DNA of 64,000 nt from Motiliproteus sp. GTDB taxonomy: Bacteria > Pseudomonadota > Gammaproteobacteria > Pseudomonadales > Balneatricaceae. Location of the stretch: assembly GCF_965230735.1 (NCBI RefSeq), contig NZ_OZ246016.1:765194-829193 (forward strand), in the 5' to 3' direction. Each line of letters begins with the position of its first letter. Position 1 is the first letter of the stretch. The translations under genes and the position numbers were made by a program. The notes beneath the pieces are model-generated. The model searched no databases. It was given only the letters and a program-made list of their open reading frames with translations, and was not told the DNA's origin. Below are positions 3,762 to 61,266 of the stretch, piece after piece.

Positions 3762-4994
3762 ATGAGCAAGATTACATCCCTGGACAAGAGCAAGATTAAG
3801 TTTCTGCTGCTTGAGGGCGTTCACCAATCCGCCGTCGATACCCTGAAGGCGTCCGGCTACAGCAACATCGATTACCTGACCACCGCGCTGCCGGAAGACG
3901 AGCTGATCGAGCGGATCAAAGACGCTCACTTTGTCGGTATCCGTTCCCGGACTCAGCTCAACGAGCGGGTGTTCGAAGCGGCGTCCAAGCTGATGGCGGT
4001 GGGTTGTTTCTGTATCGGTACCAACCAGGTTGATCTGAACGCGGCGATCGCCAAGGGTGTGACCGTGTTCAACGCGCCCTACTCCAACACTCGCTCGGTG
4101 GCGGAACTGGTGATTGCCGAAGCGATCATCCTGATGCGTGGCGTGGCCGAGAAGAATGCCAAGGCCCACCGTGGGGTCTGGAACAAGTCGGCTTCCAACT
4201 CCTATGAAGTTCGTGGCAAGAAGCTGGGCATCATCGGCTACGGTTCGATCGGTTCTCAGCTGAGCGTGATGGCCGAATCCCTGGGTATGGAAGTGATCTT
4301 CTACGATACCGTCACCAAGCTGCCGCTGGGTAACGCCAACCAGGTAGGCTCGCTGAAAGAGCTGCTGAACCAGGCCGACATCGTCAGCCTGCACGTGCCG
4401 GAAAGCCCGTCGACCAAGAACATGATCGGTCCGCAACAGCTGGAGCAGATGAAGCCGGGCTCGATCCTGATCAACGCTGCCCGCGGTACCGTGATCGAGA
4501 TCGATGCGCTGTGCGAAACCCTCAAGACCGGCAAGCTGCTGGGTGCGGCGATCGACGTGTTCCCGGTTGAGCCCAAGTCTAACAGCGAAGAGTTCGTCTC
4601 GCCGCTGCGTGAGTTCGACAATGTGATCCTGACCCCGCACGTCGGTGGCTCCACCATGGAAGCGCAGGAGAACATCGGTTTTGAAGTGGCCGAGAAACTG
4701 GTCAAGTACTCCGATAACGGCTCCACCATCACCTCGGTCAACTTCCCCGAGGTGGCCCTGCCGGCGCATCCGGACAAGCACCGCCTGTTGCACATCCACG
4801 AGAACGTGCCGGGCGTGATGACCGCGATCAACCATGTGTTCTCCGATAACAATATCAACATCTCCGGTCAGTACCTGCAGACCAACGATAAGGTCGGTTA
4901 CGTGGTGATGGATATCGATGCCGAGCACTCCGATCTGGCGGTCAAACAGCTCAAGCAGGTGCCGGGCACCATCCGCTGCCGGGTACTGTTCTAA
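3762..4994 (+). CDS. serA: D-3-phosphoglycerate dehydrogenase
   Basis: GIRSRTQL, GCFCIGTNQVDL, NAPYSNTRSVAELV, LTPHVGGST and C-terminal ACT domain; E. coli-type SerA. Confidence 0.97.
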   Translation: MSKITSLDKSKIKFLLLEGVHQSAVDTLKASGYSNIDYLTTALPEDELIERIKDAHFVGIRSRTQLNERVFEAASKLMAVGCFCIGTNQVDLNAAIAKGVTVFNAPYSNTRSVAELVIAEAIILMRGVAEKNAKAHRGVWNKSASNSYEVRGKKLGIIGYGSIGSQLSVMAESLGMEVIFYDTVTKLPLGNANQVGSLKELLNQADIVSLHVPESPSTKNMIGPQQLEQMKPGSILINAARGTVIEIDALCETLKTGKLLGAAIDVFPVEPKSNSEEFVSPLREFDNVILTPHVGGSTMEAQENIGFEVAEKLVKYSDNGSTITSVNFPEVALPAHPDKHRLLHIHENVPGVMTAINHVFSDNNINISGQYLQTNDKVGYVVMDIDAEHSDLAVKQLKQVPGTIRCRVLF

Positions 4995-5024
4995 GCCGGA
5001 TTGCTAAACGGCGACAAACCCTCC

Positions 5025-5051
5025 AAGCCCTGCTGTATAGCGGGGCTTTTT
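5025..5051 (+). terminator. Rho-independent terminator after serA
   Basis: AAGCCCTGCT-GTAT-AGCGGGGCTT followed by a T tract. Confidence 0.7.
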
Positions 5052-5202
5052 GGTATAGGCTTAGTAACTAAGCTGTTTCTGTATTAGTTCGCTTTAAAGC
5101 GCAACTGAAGGGATGGTCTAGATCTCGGCAATGCCGTTGGACGGCATGGGGAGATGGGTTGACGGTCGGACGGAACAAACCGACCGGATGTAGTCTGAAG
5201 GG

Positions 5203-56512: not shown

Positions 56513-57592
56513 GTGAACAGATCCGCTTGCCATTGGTGGCATCGGTACCGATTTGGGCTGGTAACGATAATCCTGACCGTCATGATGACATCGACGGCGC
56601 AGGCCTGGACGGTGCAATCCCGCCAGCCCCTGTTCCAGTTTGAGCAGTGGCAGCAAGCCCAGATCGAGCCGATCACCACCGCCAGCCGACCCTGGCGCCT
56701 GTGCGCGCTGTATCCCCATATCAAAGACTCCTACTGGCTTAGCGTCAATTACGGCATGGTCGATCAGGCCGAGCGGCTCGGAGTGCAGCTCAAAGCGGCC
56801 GAAGCCGGCGGCTACCACCACCTGGAGCGGCAGTGGCAGCAACTGCAGGCCTGCCTGGACTGGCCCGCCGATGCGATTCTGCTGGGAACGGTGGCGTATC
56901 AAGAACTCAACAGTCGGTTGCAGCAGCTCGATAGCGAGGTGCCGCTGTTCGGGGTGGTGAATGATCTGTCCCGCGATGGTCTGACCGGTCGGGTGGGGGT
57001 GTCCTGGTACCAGATGGGCTTCAAGGTCGGCCGTTTTCTGGCCGAGCGCCACCCGGCCGGGAGCGTACCGGCCAAAGTCGCCTGGTTCCCCGGCCCGAAA
57101 CGGTTGGAAGCCAAATCGGAAGTGGGCAGCGGCATCCGTGATGGGCTGGCCGACAGCGCGGTGACCGAGGTGATCACCGCCGGTTACGGCGACAACGATC
57201 GTGACGTGCAGCGGGCGTTGTTGCAGCAACTGCTTGATCAGCATCAGGATCTGGACTACATCGTCGGCGGCGCGGTGCTGGTCGAGATCGCCATCAATGA
57301 ACTCAAACACCGTCAACTCGACAAACCGCCGCAACTGATCAGCCACTACTATTCCCACGGTATGTACCGGGCGCTGCTGCGGGGCAAAGTGTTGATGGCC
57401 AACACCGATCAGATGGTGCTGCACGGCCGCTTGGCGATCGATCAGGCAGTACGCTATCTGGAAGGGCAGCCGCTAGAGCACGATATCGGCCCGGAGATTA
57501 TCAGCCTGACCCGGGACCGGCTCAGTCCGCAGATCAAGCAGGACTCGCTGTCACCGGCCAGCTTTATGCCGACCTATCGGGTAGAGCCTTAG
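56513..57592 (+). CDS. torT: TMAO reductase system periplasmic protein
   Basis: LCALYPHIKDSYWLSVNYG, EAGGY, VSWYQMG, AWFPGP, YGDND, AIDQAVR, LSPASF. Confidence 0.92.
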   Translation: MNRSACHWWHRYRFGLVTIILTVMMTSTAQAWTVQSRQPLFQFEQWQQAQIEPITTASRPWRLCALYPHIKDSYWLSVNYGMVDQAERLGVQLKAAEAGGYHHLERQWQQLQACLDWPADAILLGTVAYQELNSRLQQLDSEVPLFGVVNDLSRDGLTGRVGVSWYQMGFKVGRFLAERHPAGSVPAKVAWFPGPKRLEAKSEVGSGIRDGLADSAVTEVITAGYGDNDRDVQRALLQQLLDQHQDLDYIVGGAVLVEIAINELKHRQLDKPPQLISHYYSHGMYRALLRGKVLMANTDQMVLHGRLAIDQAVRYLEGQPLEHDIGPEIISLTRDRLSPQIKQDSLSPASFMPTYRVEP

Positions 57593-57786
57593 GCGTTGTA
57601 AAAAGCGGTAACCCAAATAGGTTTTGCCGGGGAATAAAGCAGACTATCGGTACAAACGCTAAGCTATAGTATCGAGACGATAAGTACCCAGCGTGCCGGT
57701 AACAGTATCGGTCCACCCTTCTAAGATCAGGGAGATCACAACGATCAGCAGGGACAGCTTCTTCCAATCATTTTCAATCTTTGGTG

Positions 57787-57928
57787 GCCTAACCATTTGC
57801 CCGTTGGGCGAACTGGGCCTGATAGATGTTGCTGAATCGATGGATGATTTTTCCTTGCTACCTTGGAAGGTAGACCAAGCTTGCAAGGAAGGTCTTCTTT
57901 ACAAGGGCCAAGTATTGAAGTGTTAAGC
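57787..57928 (+). repeat. Leftmost recombination site (degenerate long attC or attI-like)
   Basis: R' GTTAAGC at 57922; candidate R'' GCCTAAC at 57787; inner inverted repeats TTCCTTGC..GCAAGGAA and TACCTT..AAGGTA; L-box spacing non-canonical. Confidence 0.45.
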
Positions 57929-57960: not shown

Positions 57961-58398
57961 TTGGAATCCCTTAAAATTCTAAAGACAGAAATTGATAGTC
58001 ACATTGAGAGCTTCTCTTCGAAAGCTAACAGGGATAAAGGGAAAACCTTTAGATTTAAATTAGCCACACTAACCCTAACGTTAATTGCTACTCTCGCATT
58101 AGGTATCGAATTTGGGGAAGAGAATAAGGTGCTTATGAAGAATGCAGCTTTTGTATGTAGCGCATTTGTTACTTTTCTGACAGGGCTTGATCTTTATTAC
58201 AATCACAAAGGGCTTTGGGTCCAGTATGTTAAGACTAGAAACCAGTTATACGCACTAAAGTATGAGATAAAAATTTCGGAAGCTCATGAAAAAGATCTGA
58301 ACGAAGATCTCGTGAAAGAGTTCAGCCAGAAGCTTGAGAGAATATTGGAAGAATGCAACAAATGGTGGCTTAAAGAGAGATCGCGAGAAGATGCTTAA
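57961..58398 (+). CDS. Cassette 1: SLATT/DUF4231-like 2TM protein
   Basis: TTG start with GAGGAGG RBS; helix, two TM segments, then NHKGLWVQYVKTRNQLYALK and a helical tail. Confidence 0.75.
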   Translation: MESLKILKTEIDSHIESFSSKANRDKGKTFRFKLATLTLTLIATLALGIEFGEENKVLMKNAAFVCSAFVTFLTGLDLYYNHKGLWVQYVKTRNQLYALKYEIKISEAHEKDLNEDLVKEFSQKLERILEECNKWWLKERSREDA

Positions 58399-58467
58399 CA
58401 AGGCCAAGCAGTGCGTGCCCTTCGGGCACCGGACTCGCTTCGCTCGCCGCTGTTAGCGGCGTTATGC
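58393..58467 (+). repeat. attC site 1 (75 bp)
   Basis: GCTTAAC-AAGGC-CAAGCAG...CTGTT-AGCGGC-GTTATGC; extrahelical G in L''; inner hairpins GCCCTTCGGGC and CGCTTCGCTCG. Confidence 0.9.
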
Positions 58468-58482
58468 GACAAAAGGAACCGC

Positions 58483-59289
58483 ATGAGATTTATTAAAGCA
58501 AATCTACCATTTTTGCTAGCTTGTATTGCTACGCTTACAGCTTTTATATGGTTAGTAGCATCCCCTGATTTCGAACCAATAGTTACAACAGTAGTGGGCT
58601 TAATTACATGCATTAGCTTAAGACCTAAAGATTGGATGATCATCAGAAAAAGGAATCAATCAGAACTACCAGATTTCGAGTTCAATCGAATTAGCGTAAC
58701 AAAAAATACAAGAAGAGATAATATATACACAGAAGAAAATGGCTTGAAGCGTTTTAATTTTGATCATGCTTTAAGCGATAGAGATAAGTCCATAGAGTTC
58801 TCTGCTAAACCCGGAAAATACAAGTATAGCGAATGGAGCAAGGTGCCTATTCGTGTAGTTATTCTGTCGCAATCAAATACGTGGGGAGAAAACAAACACT
58901 ATGTATATGCGATAGTCCCAGATAAGAGTCCGGTTTGTTTTTATCAGTTCGAAGCTGTGTGCTGCGAAATATGCGCAGATGATGTTGATGGTGATGGGAA
59001 TTTAGAGGTTGTAATAGGCTACAAGTGCGGTGCTCATACTGAGGGATTAAGGGTTTTTCGTTTGGATGATCATTTTGACCTGATTTCAGTCCCTGGCTCT
59101 GACATAGGCAGTGACTTCCCATTAATTACTTGGGGGAGAGCGGATGGCGTTGACTATTCCGTTAACTCTTACAGCAGAAACTGGGGTGAGAATAGAGAGG
59201 AGTGGCATACACAAATTGAAGTATACAGGTATAGAGATGGAAAGTTTGATCTCTACAAGTCTGAGAAAGTGCAGTGGCAACCCGCATAA
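58483..59289 (+). CDS. Cassette 2: hypothetical protein with N-terminal 2TM and an FG-GAP-like DVDGDGNLE motif
   Basis: ATG 58483 after AAAGGA; hydrophobic N-terminus; DDVDGDGNLEVVIGY; stop lies in the attC2 R'' box. Confidence 0.75.
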   Translation: MRFIKANLPFLLACIATLTAFIWLVASPDFEPIVTTVVGLITCISLRPKDWMIIRKRNQSELPDFEFNRISVTKNTRRDNIYTEENGLKRFNFDHALSDRDKSIEFSAKPGKYKYSEWSKVPIRVVILSQSNTWGENKHYVYAIVPDKSPVCFYQFEAVCCEICADDVDGDGNLEVVIGYKCGAHTEGLRVFRLDDHFDLISVPGSDIGSDFPLITWGRADGVDYSVNSYSRNWGENREEWHTQIEVYRYRDGKFDLYKSEKVQWQPA

Positions 59290-59358
59290 CAAATCAAAGC
59301 AGCACTGCTACTTCTTGGCTGGACGCGCTAACGCGCGCCGCTGTTTGAGGTGTTAAGT
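59284..59358 (+). repeat. attC site 2 (75 bp)
   Basis: GCATAAC-AAATC-AAAGCAGC...GCTGTTT-GAGGT-GTTAAGT; extrahelical G; inner CGCGCTAACGCGCG hairpin. Confidence 0.9.
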
Positions 59359-59372
59359 GAAAAGGAAGCTCT

Positions 59373-60338
59373 GTGAAAATATGGTATTTCGAAACATCTG
59401 CTGTTAATTATCTTATGGATATCATGTCTGCACATGATGCTGTTGAAACAAAGAAAATACAGCTTCTGAAAGGAAGAGATTGGTGCATATCGCCAGTAAC
59501 TCTGCTTGAAATACTGCAAACATCAGACCCAGAAAGACGAAGGGAGATTGTTGAGTTCGCACAATGCTTATTTAGTAGTGAGCTTCTAGCCTCTCCAGAA
59601 GAAACAATTATTCACTATATAAATCAGGGCTTTCCATCTGAAGAGAAAAGGGTAAGACTTTCCTCGCAAAGCCTATTAGCTGATGTTTGGCGTGATACAT
59701 CCACAAATTATAAAGAAATAAATGTAGATGTTGAACAACTGAAAAACAGGAATAAAATTTTAAAGTCTTTCACGAAGATGATTCATCAGGTTATTAATGG
59801 AAAAGATAATATAATTATTCCAACATCAGAGAATGAGTCGTTTAATTATTCTTTAGAGGCGTGGTTAAATAGCTTAGAGTTCATTAAAAACGACTCTCCA
59901 TATACGCAAGAGCTAAGAACCATATTTAAATTATCGATTGTCTATCTAATTTTATTAATATGCTGTCATGTCGGCCCAGGCCAAGAGATAACTAATAGGT
60001 TATGGGAAAAAATAGGTATTGATAAAACAAAATGCAGAATTAATTATGCGCTCAGCAACTGGGAGCCATTAATATATAAAGGCCCTCTATCTACCTTAGC
60101 AAAAATGGCTTATAGCCAATCATTGGTCAGATTTTCAAGGGGTGTTTATAACGATAGCCTACATGCAATGTACCTTAATTACACGGATCTCATTTTTTCT
60201 GATGATGGCCACTTCAAAGATCTTCAAAACGCCCTTGCTGGAACTCCCTACTTCAGTAGAGTTCAGATCATGTCTGAAATTCCATTTAAAAAGGAGTCTC
60301 ATAGAGGTGAATTTAAATCTAACATGGTAATCACTTAA
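59373..60338 (+). CDS. Cassette 3: PIN-like domain protein (putative RNase)
   Basis: YFETSAVNYL, CISPVTLLEIL, and C-terminal YNDSLHAMY..LIFSDDGHF match the PIN acidic tetrad, split by a long insert. Confidence 0.65.
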   Translation: MKIWYFETSAVNYLMDIMSAHDAVETKKIQLLKGRDWCISPVTLLEILQTSDPERRREIVEFAQCLFSSELLASPEETIIHYINQGFPSEEKRVRLSSQSLLADVWRDTSTNYKEINVDVEQLKNRNKILKSFTKMIHQVINGKDNIIIPTSENESFNYSLEAWLNSLEFIKNDSPYTQELRTIFKLSIVYLILLICCHVGPGQEITNRLWEKIGIDKTKCRINYALSNWEPLIYKGPLSTLAKMAYSQSLVRFSRGVYNDSLHAMYLNYTDLIFSDDGHFKDLQNALAGTPYFSRVQIMSEIPFKKESHRGEFKSNMVIT

Positions 60339-60396
60339 CTACACGCCTTTCAGGCACCTGACGCAGCAAAGCTGGCCGGTTATTAAGGCGTTATAT
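60333..60396 (+). repeat. attC site 3 (64 bp, partly degenerate)
   Basis: ACTTAAC...GCACC..GCAGC-AAA-GCTG..CCGGTTATTAAGGC-GTTATAT; L''/L' pairing imperfect. Confidence 0.7.
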
Positions 60397-60549: not shown

Positions 60550-61266
60550 ATGATACAGAGAAACCACCCGAAGCGTTCTATCATCGCCCTGGTGTTGCTG
60601 CTACTAGCCCCCATCTATTTGGCACTGCCCGTCTCCGCCGCTCAGTATCGTTGCGATAACATCCCGGAAGTTTCCCTCTCTGCGCCCAACGACAACATGC
60701 TCGACTATGTTTGCACGGCCGCGGCCAGGACGTTCGAATTTCTAGGCCGCTATCAGATGGGACCTCAAAGGCCGATCCAGGTTGAGATCATTGAGCATCA
60801 GATTAACTCGGGCGGCTACAAGGCCTTTGGCAGTTATGACCGCCAAAGCGAGCGCGTCCGAATTATGTCGCTACCTGCCGTATTGAACAGCAGCCAATCA
60901 CCGCAGATGTACAAGATGCCGTTTGATCAGGAGCATTATATCGGTGCCCTTGCTCATGAGCTGGCCCATGCGGTGTTTCACCAGAATGCCGTCGACGTCG
61001 AGGAGAAGTGGAACAATACCGCCCACGAATATATCGCCCATGCCACCCAGCTCGGTGTGTTAGCGGCGCCGAAGCGTGAGCAGATTATTTTGTCTGAAGA
61101 GACGGGCCCTTGGGAGTCAGGGGATGAGATCAGCGTGACTTACATGGCCTTCAATCCCACCGGCTTCGCGGTGAAGTCCTATCTGCATCTGACTCAATTG
61201 AGCAATCCGCAGCCGTTTATCAAGCTGCTGTTGAATCACAAATGGCTGTATATCTCGGTGCCCTGA
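60550..61266 (+). CDS. Exported hypothetical protein with HExxH motif
   Basis: Signal peptide; ALAHELAHAVFH followed by HEYIAH; not followed by an attC. Confidence 0.7.
   Translation: MIQRNHPKRSIIALVLLLLAPIYLALPVSAAQYRCDNIPEVSLSAPNDNMLDYVCTAAARTFEFLGRYQMGPQRPIQVEIIEHQINSGGYKAFGSYDRQSERVRIMSLPAVLNSSQSPQMYKMPFDQEHYIGALAHELAHAVFHQNAVDVEEKWNNTAHEYIAHATQLGVLAAPKREQIILSEETGPWESGDEISVTYMAFNPTGFAVKSYLHLTQLSNPQPFIKLLLNHKWLYISVP

What the first reader, a model, noticed from the sequence alone, without database searches (positions are those of the whole stretch)
59373..60338. Cassette 3: large split PIN-like nuclease with no antitoxin
Seen: PIN-type N-terminal strands/helices (FETSAVN with E for the usual D; SPVTLLEI) and C-terminal D..H....SDD residues, separated by about 200 aa of helical insert; no small antitoxin ORF in the cassette. 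Established: PIN domains are RNases in TA and defence systems. Inference: a self-regulated, possibly phage-triggered RNase in which the insert is the sensor.
Basis: partly seen in the sequence, partly recalled or inferred. Interest (0 to 1): 0.65.

Follow-up and report, generated by a model that had tools for sequence, protein, structure and literature searches.

The report
Antitoxin-less split PIN nuclease cassette
This integron gene cassette encodes a lone 321-residue enzyme whose VapC-type PIN nuclease domain is interrupted by a large helical insert; it belongs to a rare, unannotated family and resembles the recently validated one-protein anti-phage system DS-3, but it is not detectably related to DS-3 outside the PIN motifs.

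Summary
ORF 59373-60338 (+) is intact and is the only credible gene of a 1.04-kb attC-bounded, low-GC cassette.

- **Family:** about 210 representative clusters, nearly all 310-330 aa. None has a Pfam, NCBIfam or PADLOC hit or a source name.
- **Conserved residues (106 members):** acidic residue 7 (74 E, 25 D), T8, S9, S40, E46, D261, T/S276 and D278 are invariant or nearly so. In two confident AlphaFold models (pTM 0.87 and 0.92) they sit where PIN active-site residues are defined.
- **PIN similarity:** profile comparison with canonical PIN domains gives P=2e-6 (N half) and 6e-6 (insert removed). Foldseek ranks VapC first, but not significantly (E=0.74).
- **Insert:** about 175 aa lie between strand 3 and the crossover helix. 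Residues 142-178 are hypervariable.
- **No partner gene:** none is conserved across 15 contexts. These include VCR-flanked Vibrio cholerae cassettes and a TIR/SIR2-HerA island.

The closest known system is DS-3 (DefensePredictor, Science 2026), a one-protein E. coli split-PIN defence without an antitoxin. Homology to it is not detectable.

The PIN reading is well supported. The defence role and the sensor role of the insert are inferred. I class this as a new variant of a known kind.

The parts
59284..59358 (+). attC site of cassette 2, which is the 5' boundary of cassette 3. R'' is GCATAAC (59284-59290) and R' is GTTAAGT (59352-59358). L'' and L' pair with one extrahelical G.
   Evidence: Sequence; shared 3' repeat family D1; bottom-strand fold pairs 59285-59358.
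59361..59367 (+). Ribosome-binding site AAGGAAG, ending 6 nt before the GTG start. No sigma-70-like promoter lies upstream on this strand.
   Evidence: Sequence; promoter scan at chance level, with none upstream on the + strand.
59373..60338 (+). 321-aa split-PIN protein. It is intact and is the only copy in the genome.
59373..59624 (+). PIN N half, residues 1-84: S1 (2-6), E7-T8-S9, H1, H2, S2 (35-38), S40...E46 helix, H3, S3 (about 71-73), SPEE 74-77.
   Evidence: Models. hhalign to PIN P=2e-6, with E7 on the DTN Asp and S40/E46 on the PIN S..E. Pfam PIN matches homologue P0010 residues 6-80 to profile positions 2-77, E=0.031.
59625..60143 (+). Inserted domain, residues 85-257. It is mostly helical, has one beta-hairpin (146-160), and carries near-invariant W106, W211, R222, G237-P238, Q249, R256-G257. 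No fold match was found.
59796..59906 (+). Hypervariable, indel-rich part of the insert (residues 142-178). It is a candidate specificity or sensor surface.
   Evidence: 0.6-0.9 bits per column against 2.4-3.3 at the catalytic loops; indel hot spots at 145, 149, 160, 169 and 176.
60144..60272 (+). PIN C half, residues 258-300: crossover helix H4 beginning at D261 (DSLHAMY), S4 (273-276), S276-x-D278-x-H280-F281, H5, S5 (297-299).
   Evidence: In-register hhalign to PIN 'D..liaA...lvT.D..F'.
59391..59393 (+). Codon of E7, the first active-site acid. It is Glu in 74 and Asp in 25 of the family members.
59508..59510 (+). Codon of E46, the VapC-type catalytic Glu in the helix after S2 (106/106).
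60153..60155 (+). Codon of D261, the acid at the N-terminus of the crossover helix (105/106).
60204..60206 (+). Codon of D278, the acid just after S4 (105/106).
60333..60396 (+). attC site of cassette 3. R'' is ACTTAAC (60333-60339, overlapping the stop codon) and R' is GTTATAT (60390-60396). ACGCCTT (60343-60349) pairs with AAGGCGT (60385-60391).

Best explanation
The gene encodes a stand-alone, metal-dependent nuclease of the VapC-like class of the PIN superfamily. Its catalytic domain is assembled from residues 1-84 and 258-300. A helical domain of about 175 residues is inserted between strand 3 and the crossover helix. The four catalytic carboxylates are E7 (Asp in a quarter of the family), E46, D261 and D278, helped by T8/S9, S40 and T/S276. 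It travels as a promoterless single-gene integron cassette, here third in an integrase-less array between torT and torR. It works without a partner protein. By analogy with the validated one-protein split-PIN system DS-3, it most likely acts as an antitoxin-less, auto-inhibited anti-phage (abortive-infection-type) ribonuclease. On this reading the inserted domain holds the active site closed or incomplete until an infection cue is met. The hypervariable segment 142-178 is the best candidate for the cue-reading surface. Shown: the family, the motifs, the predicted topology, the cassette structure and the absence of a partner gene. Inferred: nuclease activity, RNA as substrate, auto-inhibition and the defence role.
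For: - Family and conservation: 210 representatives at E<=1e-3, nearly all full length at 310-330 aa. The four acidic positions and their S/T helpers are near-invariant in 106 members. The catalytic loops are the most conserved parts, at 2.4-3.3 bits.
- Topology: two AlphaFold2 models (pLDDT 88.5, pTM 0.87; pLDDT 93.5, pTM 0.92) give S1-H-H-S2-H(E46)-H-S3-[insert]-H4(D261)-S4-(D278)-H5-S5. This places each acid where Matelska et al. 2017 define PIN active-site residues (PMC5499597).
- Profile-profile comparison against a PIN alignment built from 30 PF01850 genes: N half P=2e-6 (89% probability); insert-deleted core P=6e-6 over 117 columns, with all four acids in register. Controls: the reversed alignment scores 8; 30 block shuffles reach at most 30.6 against the real 37.5. 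Under the same test the accepted PIN protein DS-3 scores more weakly (P=7.5e-4).
- Foldseek: VapC2 3zvk_C is the top PDB hit. VapC chains 6sd6_C, 3tnd_A, 3h87_A and 4chg_A are in the top 27 of 350,542 chains.
- Stand-alone unit: in V. cholerae, VCR repeats flank the gene at 1107-bp spacing, and the neighbours differ between strains. In Pseudoalteromonas it is the second cassette after intI. No neighbour is shared across genera and no small ORF is conserved in position.
- Defence-like context: the Aurantivibrio copy lies beside TIR, SIR2_2 + HerA-like ATPase, and DUF927 primase + AlpA genes. V. cholerae copies lie near AbiV-HEPN, SEFIR/TIR and ParE cassettes. Integron cassettes are documented reservoirs of single-gene defence systems (10.1101/2024.07.02.601686), including the PIN_12 cassette Cosus (10.1101/2024.07.02.601719).
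- Precedent: DS-3 is one protein of 340 aa, with PIN halves at residues 1-75 and 276-327 and no antitoxin. D7A and E42A abolish its defence (PMC13092281).
Against: - No structural match is statistically significant (best Foldseek E=0.74; nothing in BFVD).
- Pfam PIN is below its cut-off: 15.3 against 23.6 bits, in one member of 13.
- The C half alone matches PIN only at P=0.067.
- Glu at the first acidic position is unusual for PIN domains.
- No PADLOC model matches, and no experiment exists on any family member.
- Most genomic neighbours are uncharacterised rather than known defence genes.
- The cassette has no promoter of its own and may be silent here.
- Four of eight species-representative genomic copies are broken or partial. 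This also fits neutral decay of a gene that is not needed.
Confidence: 0.55

Rival explanations
1. It is a genuine split-PIN nuclease, but its role is not anti-phage defence. Possible roles include RNA processing or turnover, competition between mobile elements, or no current role, as a silent cargo gene kept only by cassette turnover.
For: The PIN evidence is the same as above. Most neighbours are not known defence genes. There is no PADLOC hit. The cassette is promoterless and third in an array without a Pc promoter. Half of the species-level copies are degraded. The family is very rare: 1 of 400 sampled genomes of the class.
Against: A rare, patchy distribution across phyla, low GC relative to every host locus, residence in integron arrays and in a TIR/SIR2-HerA island, and a hypervariable surface patch are typical of conflict genes. 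The only characterised protein with this architecture is a defence system.
Confidence: 0.25
2. The PIN-like scaffold has lost or changed its chemistry. It might be a binding protein, or an enzyme acting on a non-nucleic-acid phosphoester, with E7 replacing the canonical Asp and H264/H280 forming a different site.
For: Glu replaces the nearly universal first Asp in 74% of members. Two near-invariant or common histidines (H264 105/106, H280 73/106) are not part of the canonical PIN site. There is no significant structural hit.
Against: All four canonical acidic positions are kept at 99-100% as acidic residues. E and D interchange freely at position 7, as expected for a metal ligand. Pseudo-enzymes usually lose such residues.
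Confidence: 0.1
3. It is an orphan type II toxin (VapC-like) whose antitoxin is encoded elsewhere or has been lost.
For: The active-site layout is VapC-like. ParE-type toxin-antitoxin cassettes lie next to it in two V. cholerae arrays.
Against: None of the 15 contexts examined has a conserved adjacent small gene. The cassette boundaries leave no room for one. The ParE pair in V. cholerae is a separate, oppositely oriented cassette and is absent from other strains. The protein is 2.4 times the size of VapC and its insert is conserved family-wide. The host genome has no PF01850 PIN gene or VapB partner to borrow from.
Confidence: 0.05
4. It is a SIR2-like NADase related to KomC of the Kongming system.
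For: phmmer against PDB sequences: KomC chains at E=0.003-0.007 over residues 144-306.
Against: The hit disappears when the family profile is used. The catalytic His146 of KomC aligns with D278, and the SIR2 glycine-rich NAD loop aligns with the hypervariable hairpin. No SIR2 Pfam or PADLOC hit was found. The alignment cuts across the predicted domain boundaries.
Confidence: 0.02

Closest known systems
DS-3 (working name PIN8, WP_022645725.1, E. coli), the one-protein anti-phage system from DefensePredictor (PMC13092281, Science 2026)
   Same: It is a single protein of similar size (340 against 321 aa). Its PIN domain is split into an N half (residues 1-75 against 1-84) and a C half (276-327 against 258-300) by a helical insert of about 200 aa at the same topological point, with a conserved Pro just after strand 3 (P75 in both). 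The motif layout is the same: (D/E)7-T-(N/S), (T/S)-x5-E, D-x14-(T/S)-x-D-x-x-F. It has no antitoxin or partner gene. Its authors also propose auto-inhibition.
   Different: No family-level sequence similarity was detected: phmmer and hmmsearch find nothing, and the full-length profile comparison gives P=0.064, out of register. The inserts are unrelated at sequence level (P=0.065). DS-3 has the canonical Asp at position 7; this family mostly has Glu. The near-invariant W106, W211, Q249, R256-G257, H264 and Y267 of this family have no DS-3 counterparts. DS-3 is enterobacterial; this family occurs in marine Gammaproteobacteria, Deltaproteobacteria, Cyanobacteria and Bacteroidota-like genomes and often sits in integron cassettes. 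DS-3 has been tested experimentally; this family has not.
VapC toxins of VapBC type II toxin-antitoxin systems (Pfam PF01850; e.g. PDB 3zvk, 3tnd, 5wzf)
   Same: The order of core elements is the same, and the four acidic residues are the same, including the VapC-specific Glu in the helix after strand 2. VapC gives the best (weak) Foldseek hits and a profile match at P=2e-6.
   Different: VapC is about 130 aa, uninterrupted, and always paired with an upstream VapB antitoxin. This protein is 321 aa with a 175-aa insert between S3 and H4, has no antitoxin, falls below the Pfam cut-off, and has Glu for the first Asp.
Cosus (Brc24), a PIN_12-domain phage-defence cassette of mobile integrons (Kieffer et al., 10.1101/2024.07.02.601719)
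   Same: It is a single-gene integron cassette encoding a PIN-superfamily protein. Its defence depends on the PIN residues.
   Different: Cosus belongs to PIN_12 (PF16289), a different PIN family. The protein here has no PF16289 hit at E<=1 and has a split core.

Membership tests
PIN domain-like superfamily, VapC-like class (Matelska et al. 2017, PMC5499597) | Acidic residue immediately downstream of strand S1 | tested here: met
   E7 follows strand 2-6. The column is E in 74 and D in 25 of 100 residues, followed by T8 (99) and S9 (93), like the PIN motif 'DTN/DTS'.
PIN domain-like superfamily, VapC-like class (Matelska et al. 2017, PMC5499597) | Fourth acid after S2; in the VapC class, a Glu in the short helix following S2 | tested here: met
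   E46 is 106/106, in helix 41-48 after strand 35-38. S40 is 106/106. Both align to the PIN 'S..s..E'.
PIN domain-like superfamily, VapC-like class (Matelska et al. 2017, PMC5499597) | [quoted passage not shown] | tested here: met
   D261 is 105/106, at the start of helix 258-269, which leads into strand 273-276.
PIN domain-like superfamily, VapC-like class (Matelska et al. 2017, PMC5499597) | Asp/Glu just downstream of S4 | tested here: met
   D278 is 105/106, two residues after strand 273-276, in a (T/S)276-x-D278-x-x-F281 motif equivalent to the PIN 'T.D..F'.
PIN domain-like superfamily, VapC-like class (Matelska et al. 2017, PMC5499597) | Three-layer alpha/beta/alpha fold with a five-stranded parallel sheet that superimposes on known PIN structures | tested here: inconclusive
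   The order of secondary-structure elements fits in two confident models. VapC is the top and most recurrent Foldseek hit, but E=0.74-3 and TM about 0.35 on the target. Sheet order could not be read because no coordinates are available.
PIN domain-like superfamily, VapC-like class (Matelska et al. 2017, PMC5499597) | Sequence-profile membership (Pfam PF01850 gathering score) | tested here: not met
   The window protein has no hit at E<=1. The best family member scores 15.3 bits against a cut-off of 23.6. The more sensitive profile-profile test is positive (P=2e-6 and 6e-6, with controls).
PIN domain-like superfamily, VapC-like class (Matelska et al. 2017, PMC5499597) | The four carboxylates cluster in space and bind Mg2+/Mn2+; nuclease activity | not testable with these tools
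   Model coordinates are not exposed, and this cannot be tested without bench experiments.
VapBC type II toxin-antitoxin module | Adjacent, co-transcribed antitoxin gene | tested here: not met
   The cassette has no room for one. No neighbour or small ORF is conserved across 15 loci.
DS-3 one-protein split-PIN defence system (PMC13092281) | One protein without a partner; PIN core split by an insert of about 200 aa between the N half and the C half | tested here: met
   Halves at 1-84 and 258-300 here, against 1-75 and 276-327 in DS-3. No partner gene.
DS-3 one-protein split-PIN defence system (PMC13092281) | Detectable homology to WP_022645725.1 and its relatives | tested here: not met
   phmmer and hmmsearch find nothing. 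hhalign of A2 against A3 gives P=0.064, out of register. The halves align in register but weakly (P=0.057 and 0.0078), and the inserts give P=0.065. The DS-3 alignment is shallow (Neff about 2.7), so distant homology is not excluded.
DS-3 one-protein split-PIN defence system (PMC13092281) | Phage protection that depends on the PIN catalytic residues | not testable with these tools
   Needs plaque assays with the wild-type cassette and E7A/E46A/D261A/D278A mutants.
Integron gene cassette | One promoterless ORF followed by an attC site with R'' (RYYYAAC) and R' (GTTRRRY) boxes and an imperfect palindrome | tested here: met
   ACTTAAC at 60333-60339 and GTTATAT at 60390-60396, with paired L''/L'. 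The upstream attC is at 59284-59358. The three sites share a 3' repeat family. No promoter was found. No dedicated attC covariance model was available, and the fold z-scores are modest (-1.2 to -2.6).
Integron gene cassette | Homologues found as cassettes in bona fide integrons | tested here: met
   In V. cholerae the gene is flanked by VCR repeats at 1107-bp spacing, within shuffled arrays. In Pseudoalteromonas A601 it is the second cassette after an intI gene.
SIR2-family NADase (KomC-like) | Conserved catalytic His and NAD-binding loop; profile-level similarity | tested here: not met
   KomC H146 aligns with D278. The hit is lost with the family profile.

The most novel reading that the evidence does not exclude
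This family is an independent, second invention (or a relative diverged beyond recognition) of an 'insert-gated' PIN nuclease. On this reading a conserved helical domain, grown between strand 3 and the crossover helix, contributes residues to the active site (W106, W211, Q249, R256-G257, H264). Its hypervariable hairpin segment 142-178 reads a phage cue and unlocks the site. A Glu-for-Asp first ligand tunes metal binding for tight auto-inhibition. This would establish intramolecular gating as a general, recurrent way of making antitoxin-free PIN toxins small enough for integron cassettes.
Probability: 0.25. Interest if true: 0.65.

Novelty: new variant of a known kind. Interest (0 to 1): 0.5.

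Why it matters
PIN/VapC nucleases are usually kept harmless by a separate antitoxin. A one-protein version needs a built-in switch, and only one such protein (DS-3) has been tested so far. Its mechanism is unknown.

A second family with the same architecture and an unrelated sequence offers three things:
- about 200 diverse members;
- a confident structural model;
- a clearly delimited hypervariable patch.

Together these give a comparative handle on how such switches work and what triggers them. The family also adds a compact (1 kb) candidate to the set of integron-borne single-gene defence systems. Finally, it shows that an unannotated 'hypothetical protein' in the V. cholerae superintegron has a predictable catalytic site that can be tested by four point mutations.

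Tried and rejected
- Pfam, NCBIfam, PADLOC and PHROGs scans of the protein gave no usable hit.
- The KomC/SIR2 similarity from phmmer against PDB was rejected. It vanishes with the family profile and the catalytic His is not conserved.
- Foldseek of both models against PDB and of the first against BFVD gave nothing significant. The insert domain has no recognisable structural relative.
- I looked for model coordinates in the Python box, to measure carboxylate distances. None are provided.
- Homology to DS-3 was tested with phmmer, hmmsearch and hhalign, full length and by parts. It was not detectable.
- The search for related loci with the 106-sequence alignment failed because no stretch was conserved enough. 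It was repeated with the 13-sequence alignment.
- A profile search of the 5.8-billion-protein set with A2 added no annotated or Pfam-bearing relative.
- A search for a conserved partner or antitoxin (all-versus-all BLAST of neighbours, positional small ORFs) found none.
- The DefensePredictor supplementary tables were searched for the family's N-terminal motif strings. No occurrence was found; several of those tables were cut when stored.
- A search for the family in 400 genomes of the same class found only the window's own genome.
Full report
**1. What is at the coordinates**

ORF 59373..60338 (+) encodes 321 aa from a GTG start. An AAGGAAG ribosome-binding site precedes the start. The ORF lies in a low-GC island of 34-43% GC, roughly 57.6-60.5 kb, inside flanks of about 60% GC.

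- The island sits between a torT-like gene (56513..57592, +) with a torS-like kinase upstream, and a DUF6639 ORF, a torR-like regulator and torC downstream.
- It holds three same-strand ORFs. Each is followed by an attC-like site with RYYYAAC...GTTRRRY boxes and internal pairing: 58393-58467, 59284-59358 and 60333-60396.
- Cassette 3 runs from about 59354 to 60396. It contains only the target ORF. Fourteen nucleotides separate the attC R' box from the start codon, and the stop codon lies inside the next attC.
- No sigma-70-like promoter lies upstream on the + strand.
- The only other ORFs of 40 aa or more overlap the gene, and none keeps its position in homologous loci.

**2. A real protein family without annotation**

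- The word-indexed search found 18 relatives. These include 66%-identical 'hypothetical proteins' of Vibrio cholerae and a 79%-identical one in Aurantivibrio plasticivorans.
- The exhaustive HMMER search of 1.84 billion representatives found 210 clusters at E<=1e-3 and 137 at E<=1e-10. Almost all are 310-330 aa and align end to end.
- No member carries a Pfam domain or an informative source name. The window protein has no hit in Pfam, NCBIfam, PADLOC or PHROGs.
- The family is rare. Only the window's own genome among 400 sampled genomes of its class has it, and it is single-copy there.
- It is phylogenetically scattered: Pseudoalteromonas, Alcanivorax, Maricurvus, Deltaproteobacteria, Microcoleus and another cyanobacterium, Flavobacterium, and a low-GC MAG. 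In every locus where it was measured it is lower in GC than its surroundings.

**3. PIN assignment from sequence**

In an alignment of 106 full-length members (A2) the most conserved columns are:

| Position | Count |
|---|---|
| Y5 | 97 |
| position 7 | E 74 / D 25 |
| T8 | 99 |
| S9 | 93 |
| N12 | 95 |
| S40 | 106/106 |
| E46 | 106/106 |
| P75 | 98 |
| E77 | 89 |
| W106 | 105 |
| W211 | 104 |
| G237 | 102 |
| P238 | 105 |
| Q249 | 101 |
| R256 | 101 |
| G257 | 105 |
| D261 | 105 |
| H264 | 105 |
| Y267 | 101 |
| T/S276 | 100 |
| D278 | 105 |
| F281 | 90 |

(All counts.)

- The pattern (E/D)-T-S ... S-x5-E ... D-x14-(T/S)-x-D-x-x-F is the canonical VapC-type PIN signature 'DTN ... S..E ... 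D..liaA ... T.D..F'.
- I built a PIN reference alignment from 30 PF01850 genes found in genomes of the same class and ran hhalign against it.
  - The N-terminal 90 residues match PIN at P=2.1e-6 (89% probability).
  - With the insert removed in silico, 117 columns align across the whole PIN domain at P=6e-6, with all four acids in register.
  - The C-terminal piece alone is weak (P=0.067) but in the expected register.
- Controls: the column-reversed PIN alignment scores 8. Thirty block shuffles score 14-30.6, against 37.5 for the real alignment.
- One family member (P0010) matches Pfam PIN co-linearly, residues 6-80 to profile positions 2-77, at E=0.031. This is below the curated cut-off.
- A phmmer hit to the SIR2 NADase KomC (E=0.003) was discarded. 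It disappears with the family profile, and KomC's catalytic His aligns with D278.

**4. PIN assignment from predicted structure**

- AlphaFold2 with 13 sequences gave pLDDT 88.5 and pTM 0.87. With 106 sequences it gave pLDDT 93.5 and pTM 0.92. The secondary structure is identical in both:
  - strand 2-6, helices 8-17 and 20-32, strand 35-38, helices 41-48 and 53-66, a bridge at 72, and helix 75-84;
  - then a mostly helical block, 101-252, with one hairpin (146-150 and 156-160);
  - then helix 258-269, strand 273-276, helix 279-287 and strand 297-299.
- Matelska et al. 2017 define the PIN core as S1-S5 and H1-H5. The invariant acids lie after S1, at the N-terminus of the crossover helix H4, and after S4. 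A fourth acid lies after S2, and in the VapC class it is a Glu in a short helix (PMC5499597).
- E7, D261, D278 and E46 occupy exactly these positions. The insert of about 175 residues lies between S3 and H4.
- Foldseek gives no significant match. This is as expected for a discontinuous domain.
- VapC is nevertheless the top PDB hit for the better model (3zvk_C, E=0.74). VapC chains 6sd6_C, 3tnd_A, 3h87_A and 4chg_A recur in the top 27 of 350,542 chains.
- I rate the PIN-nuclease assignment at about 0.85.

**5. The insert**

- It has no sequence or fold relative.
- It is not uniformly variable. It carries near-invariant W106, W211, R222, G237-P238, Q249 and R256-G257, and the last of these directly precede H4. 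Part of it therefore probably builds or covers the active site.
- Residues 142-178 (the hairpin and two short helices) are the least conserved part of the protein. They score 0.6-0.9 bits per column, against 2.4-3.3 at the catalytic loops, and they concentrate indels.
- This is the pattern expected of a specificity or sensor surface, but it is only an inference.

**6. A stand-alone unit**

- In V. cholerae the gene (4001-4969 of L001) is bracketed by VCR repeats at 3860-4009 and 4967-5116. It is therefore a 1107-bp single-gene cassette. Its neighbours differ between strains: AbiV-HEPN, SEFIR/TIR, GNAT, ParE pair and DUF cassettes.
- In Pseudoalteromonas sp. A601 it is the second cassette downstream of an integron integrase.
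- In marine metagenome contigs it sits in a same-strand array of small ORFs.
- In Aurantivibrio it lies in an island with a TIR protein, SIR2_2 plus a HerA-like ATPase, and DUF927 primase plus AlpA.
- In a deltaproteobacterial MAG it is wedged between dxs and a Bro-N protein.
- An all-versus-all BLAST of neighbours finds nothing shared across genera. Neighbours mostly lack Pfam or PADLOC hits.
- Four of eight species-representative copies are broken or partial: Maricurvus, Flavobacterium, Pseudoalteromonas and a cyanobacterium.
- The window's genome has an intI-like gene about 440 kb away (C1:1266349-1267296) next to 5 kb of low-GC DNA. The array here is therefore an integrase-less cluster in a genome that also has a complete integron.

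**7. Comparison with what is known**

  - HHpred placed PIN at residues 1-75 and 276-327 of its 340 aa.
  - D7A and E42A abolished defence.
  - The authors note that there is no cognate antitoxin and suggest auto-inhibition.
- I took the DS-3 sequence from the paper's Table S8, collected its relatives and aligned 20 of them (A3).
  - DS-3 is not a detectable member of the present family. phmmer and hmmsearch find nothing.
  - The full-length profile-profile comparison gives P=0.064, out of register.
  - The PIN halves align in register but weakly (P=0.057 and 0.0078). D7/E7, E42/E46, D297/D261 and D315/D278 are equivalent.
  - The inserts are unrelated (P=0.065).
  - Both proteins have a conserved proline right after strand 3. 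Very distant common ancestry cannot be excluded, and the DS-3 alignment is shallow.
  - Under the same test, the present family resembles canonical PIN more strongly than DS-3 does (2e-6 against 7.5e-4).
- Integron cassettes are established reservoirs of compact defence systems (10.1101/2024.07.02.601686; 10.64898/2026.03.17.712381). These include a PIN_12 cassette, Cosus (10.1101/2024.07.02.601719). None of the passages I read in these papers (term searches and one results section) describes this family.

**8. Verdict**

- The PIN-like, split, antitoxin-less reading is well supported by conservation, topology and profile statistics. It is not yet clinched by a significant structural superposition.
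- The functional reading, an auto-inhibited phage-triggered RNase with the insert as sensor, is plausible. It rests on a direct experimental precedent (DS-3) and on mobile or defence-like contexts, but it is untested for this family.
- The cassette here may be silent. It is promoterless and third in an array without a Pc promoter. Expression data were unavailable.
- I class it as a new variant of a known kind. It has the same architecture and probable logic as DS-3 in an unrelated-looking, unannotated family. Its distinguishing features are the Glu first ligand, its own conserved insert residues and residence in integron cassettes.
- Interest is moderate, at 0.5.

Noticed in passing
genome C1:1261000-1267296 (outside the window; the window is C1:765194-829193): An integron-integrase-like gene is 41% identical over 316 aa to the Pseudoalteromonas IntI (E=5e-74). 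It lies next to about 5 kb of 38-42% GC DNA. The genome therefore probably has a complete integron about 440 kb from this integrase-less array, and that integrase could move these cassettes in trans.
   Followed up: partly
window 57961-58398 (+): Cassette 1 encodes a 145-aa stand-alone SLATT_1 protein (NCBIfam NF033634, E=1.3e-21; below the cut-off in Pfam). No SMODS or SLOG partner lies in the array.
   Followed up: partly
window 58411-59289 (+): Cassette 2 encodes a 292-aa protein with an N-terminal hydrophobic segment and only faint FG-GAP-like hits (E about 0.03). It has no family assignment.
   Followed up: no
window 60550-61266 (+): Between the last attC and torR lies a 238-aa DUF6639 protein (Pfam E=6e-13). 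It has an N-terminal hydrophobic segment, a HELAH motif and faint zincin/M78-like hits, so it may be a metallopeptidase-like protein. Its GC is about 0.53, intermediate between the island and the flanks.
   Followed up: no
window 57553-57565 and 60368-60380: A perfect 13-nt inverted repeat (ACCGGCCAGCTTT / AAAGCTGGCCGGT) brackets the whole island. One arm is in the 3' end of torT and the other is inside the last attC. By my own rough estimate (not computed with a tool) the chance expectation is about 0.1, so this may be coincidence.
   Followed up: no
window 57600-57921: About 320 nt of intermediate-GC, ORF-poor sequence lies between torT and the first cassette boundary (GTTAAGC at 57922-57928). 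It includes a 26-nt imperfect palindrome at 57861-57906. It could be a remnant of an attI/attC site or of a promoter region.
   Followed up: no
L039 (Maricurvus nonylphenolicus), L042 (Flavobacterium), L036 (Pseudoalteromonas), L043 (cyanobacterium): Four of eight species-representative genomic copies of the family are truncated, split or partial. This suggests frequent inactivation, through either cost or neutral decay.
   Followed up: partly
L005:290-4309 (Aurantivibrio plasticivorans): The 79%-identical homologue sits in a small island with a TIR_2 protein, a SIR2_2 protein next to a HerA/FtsK-like ATPase, and a DUF927 primase with AlpA. This looks like a defence-island or satellite-like element.
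   Followed up: no
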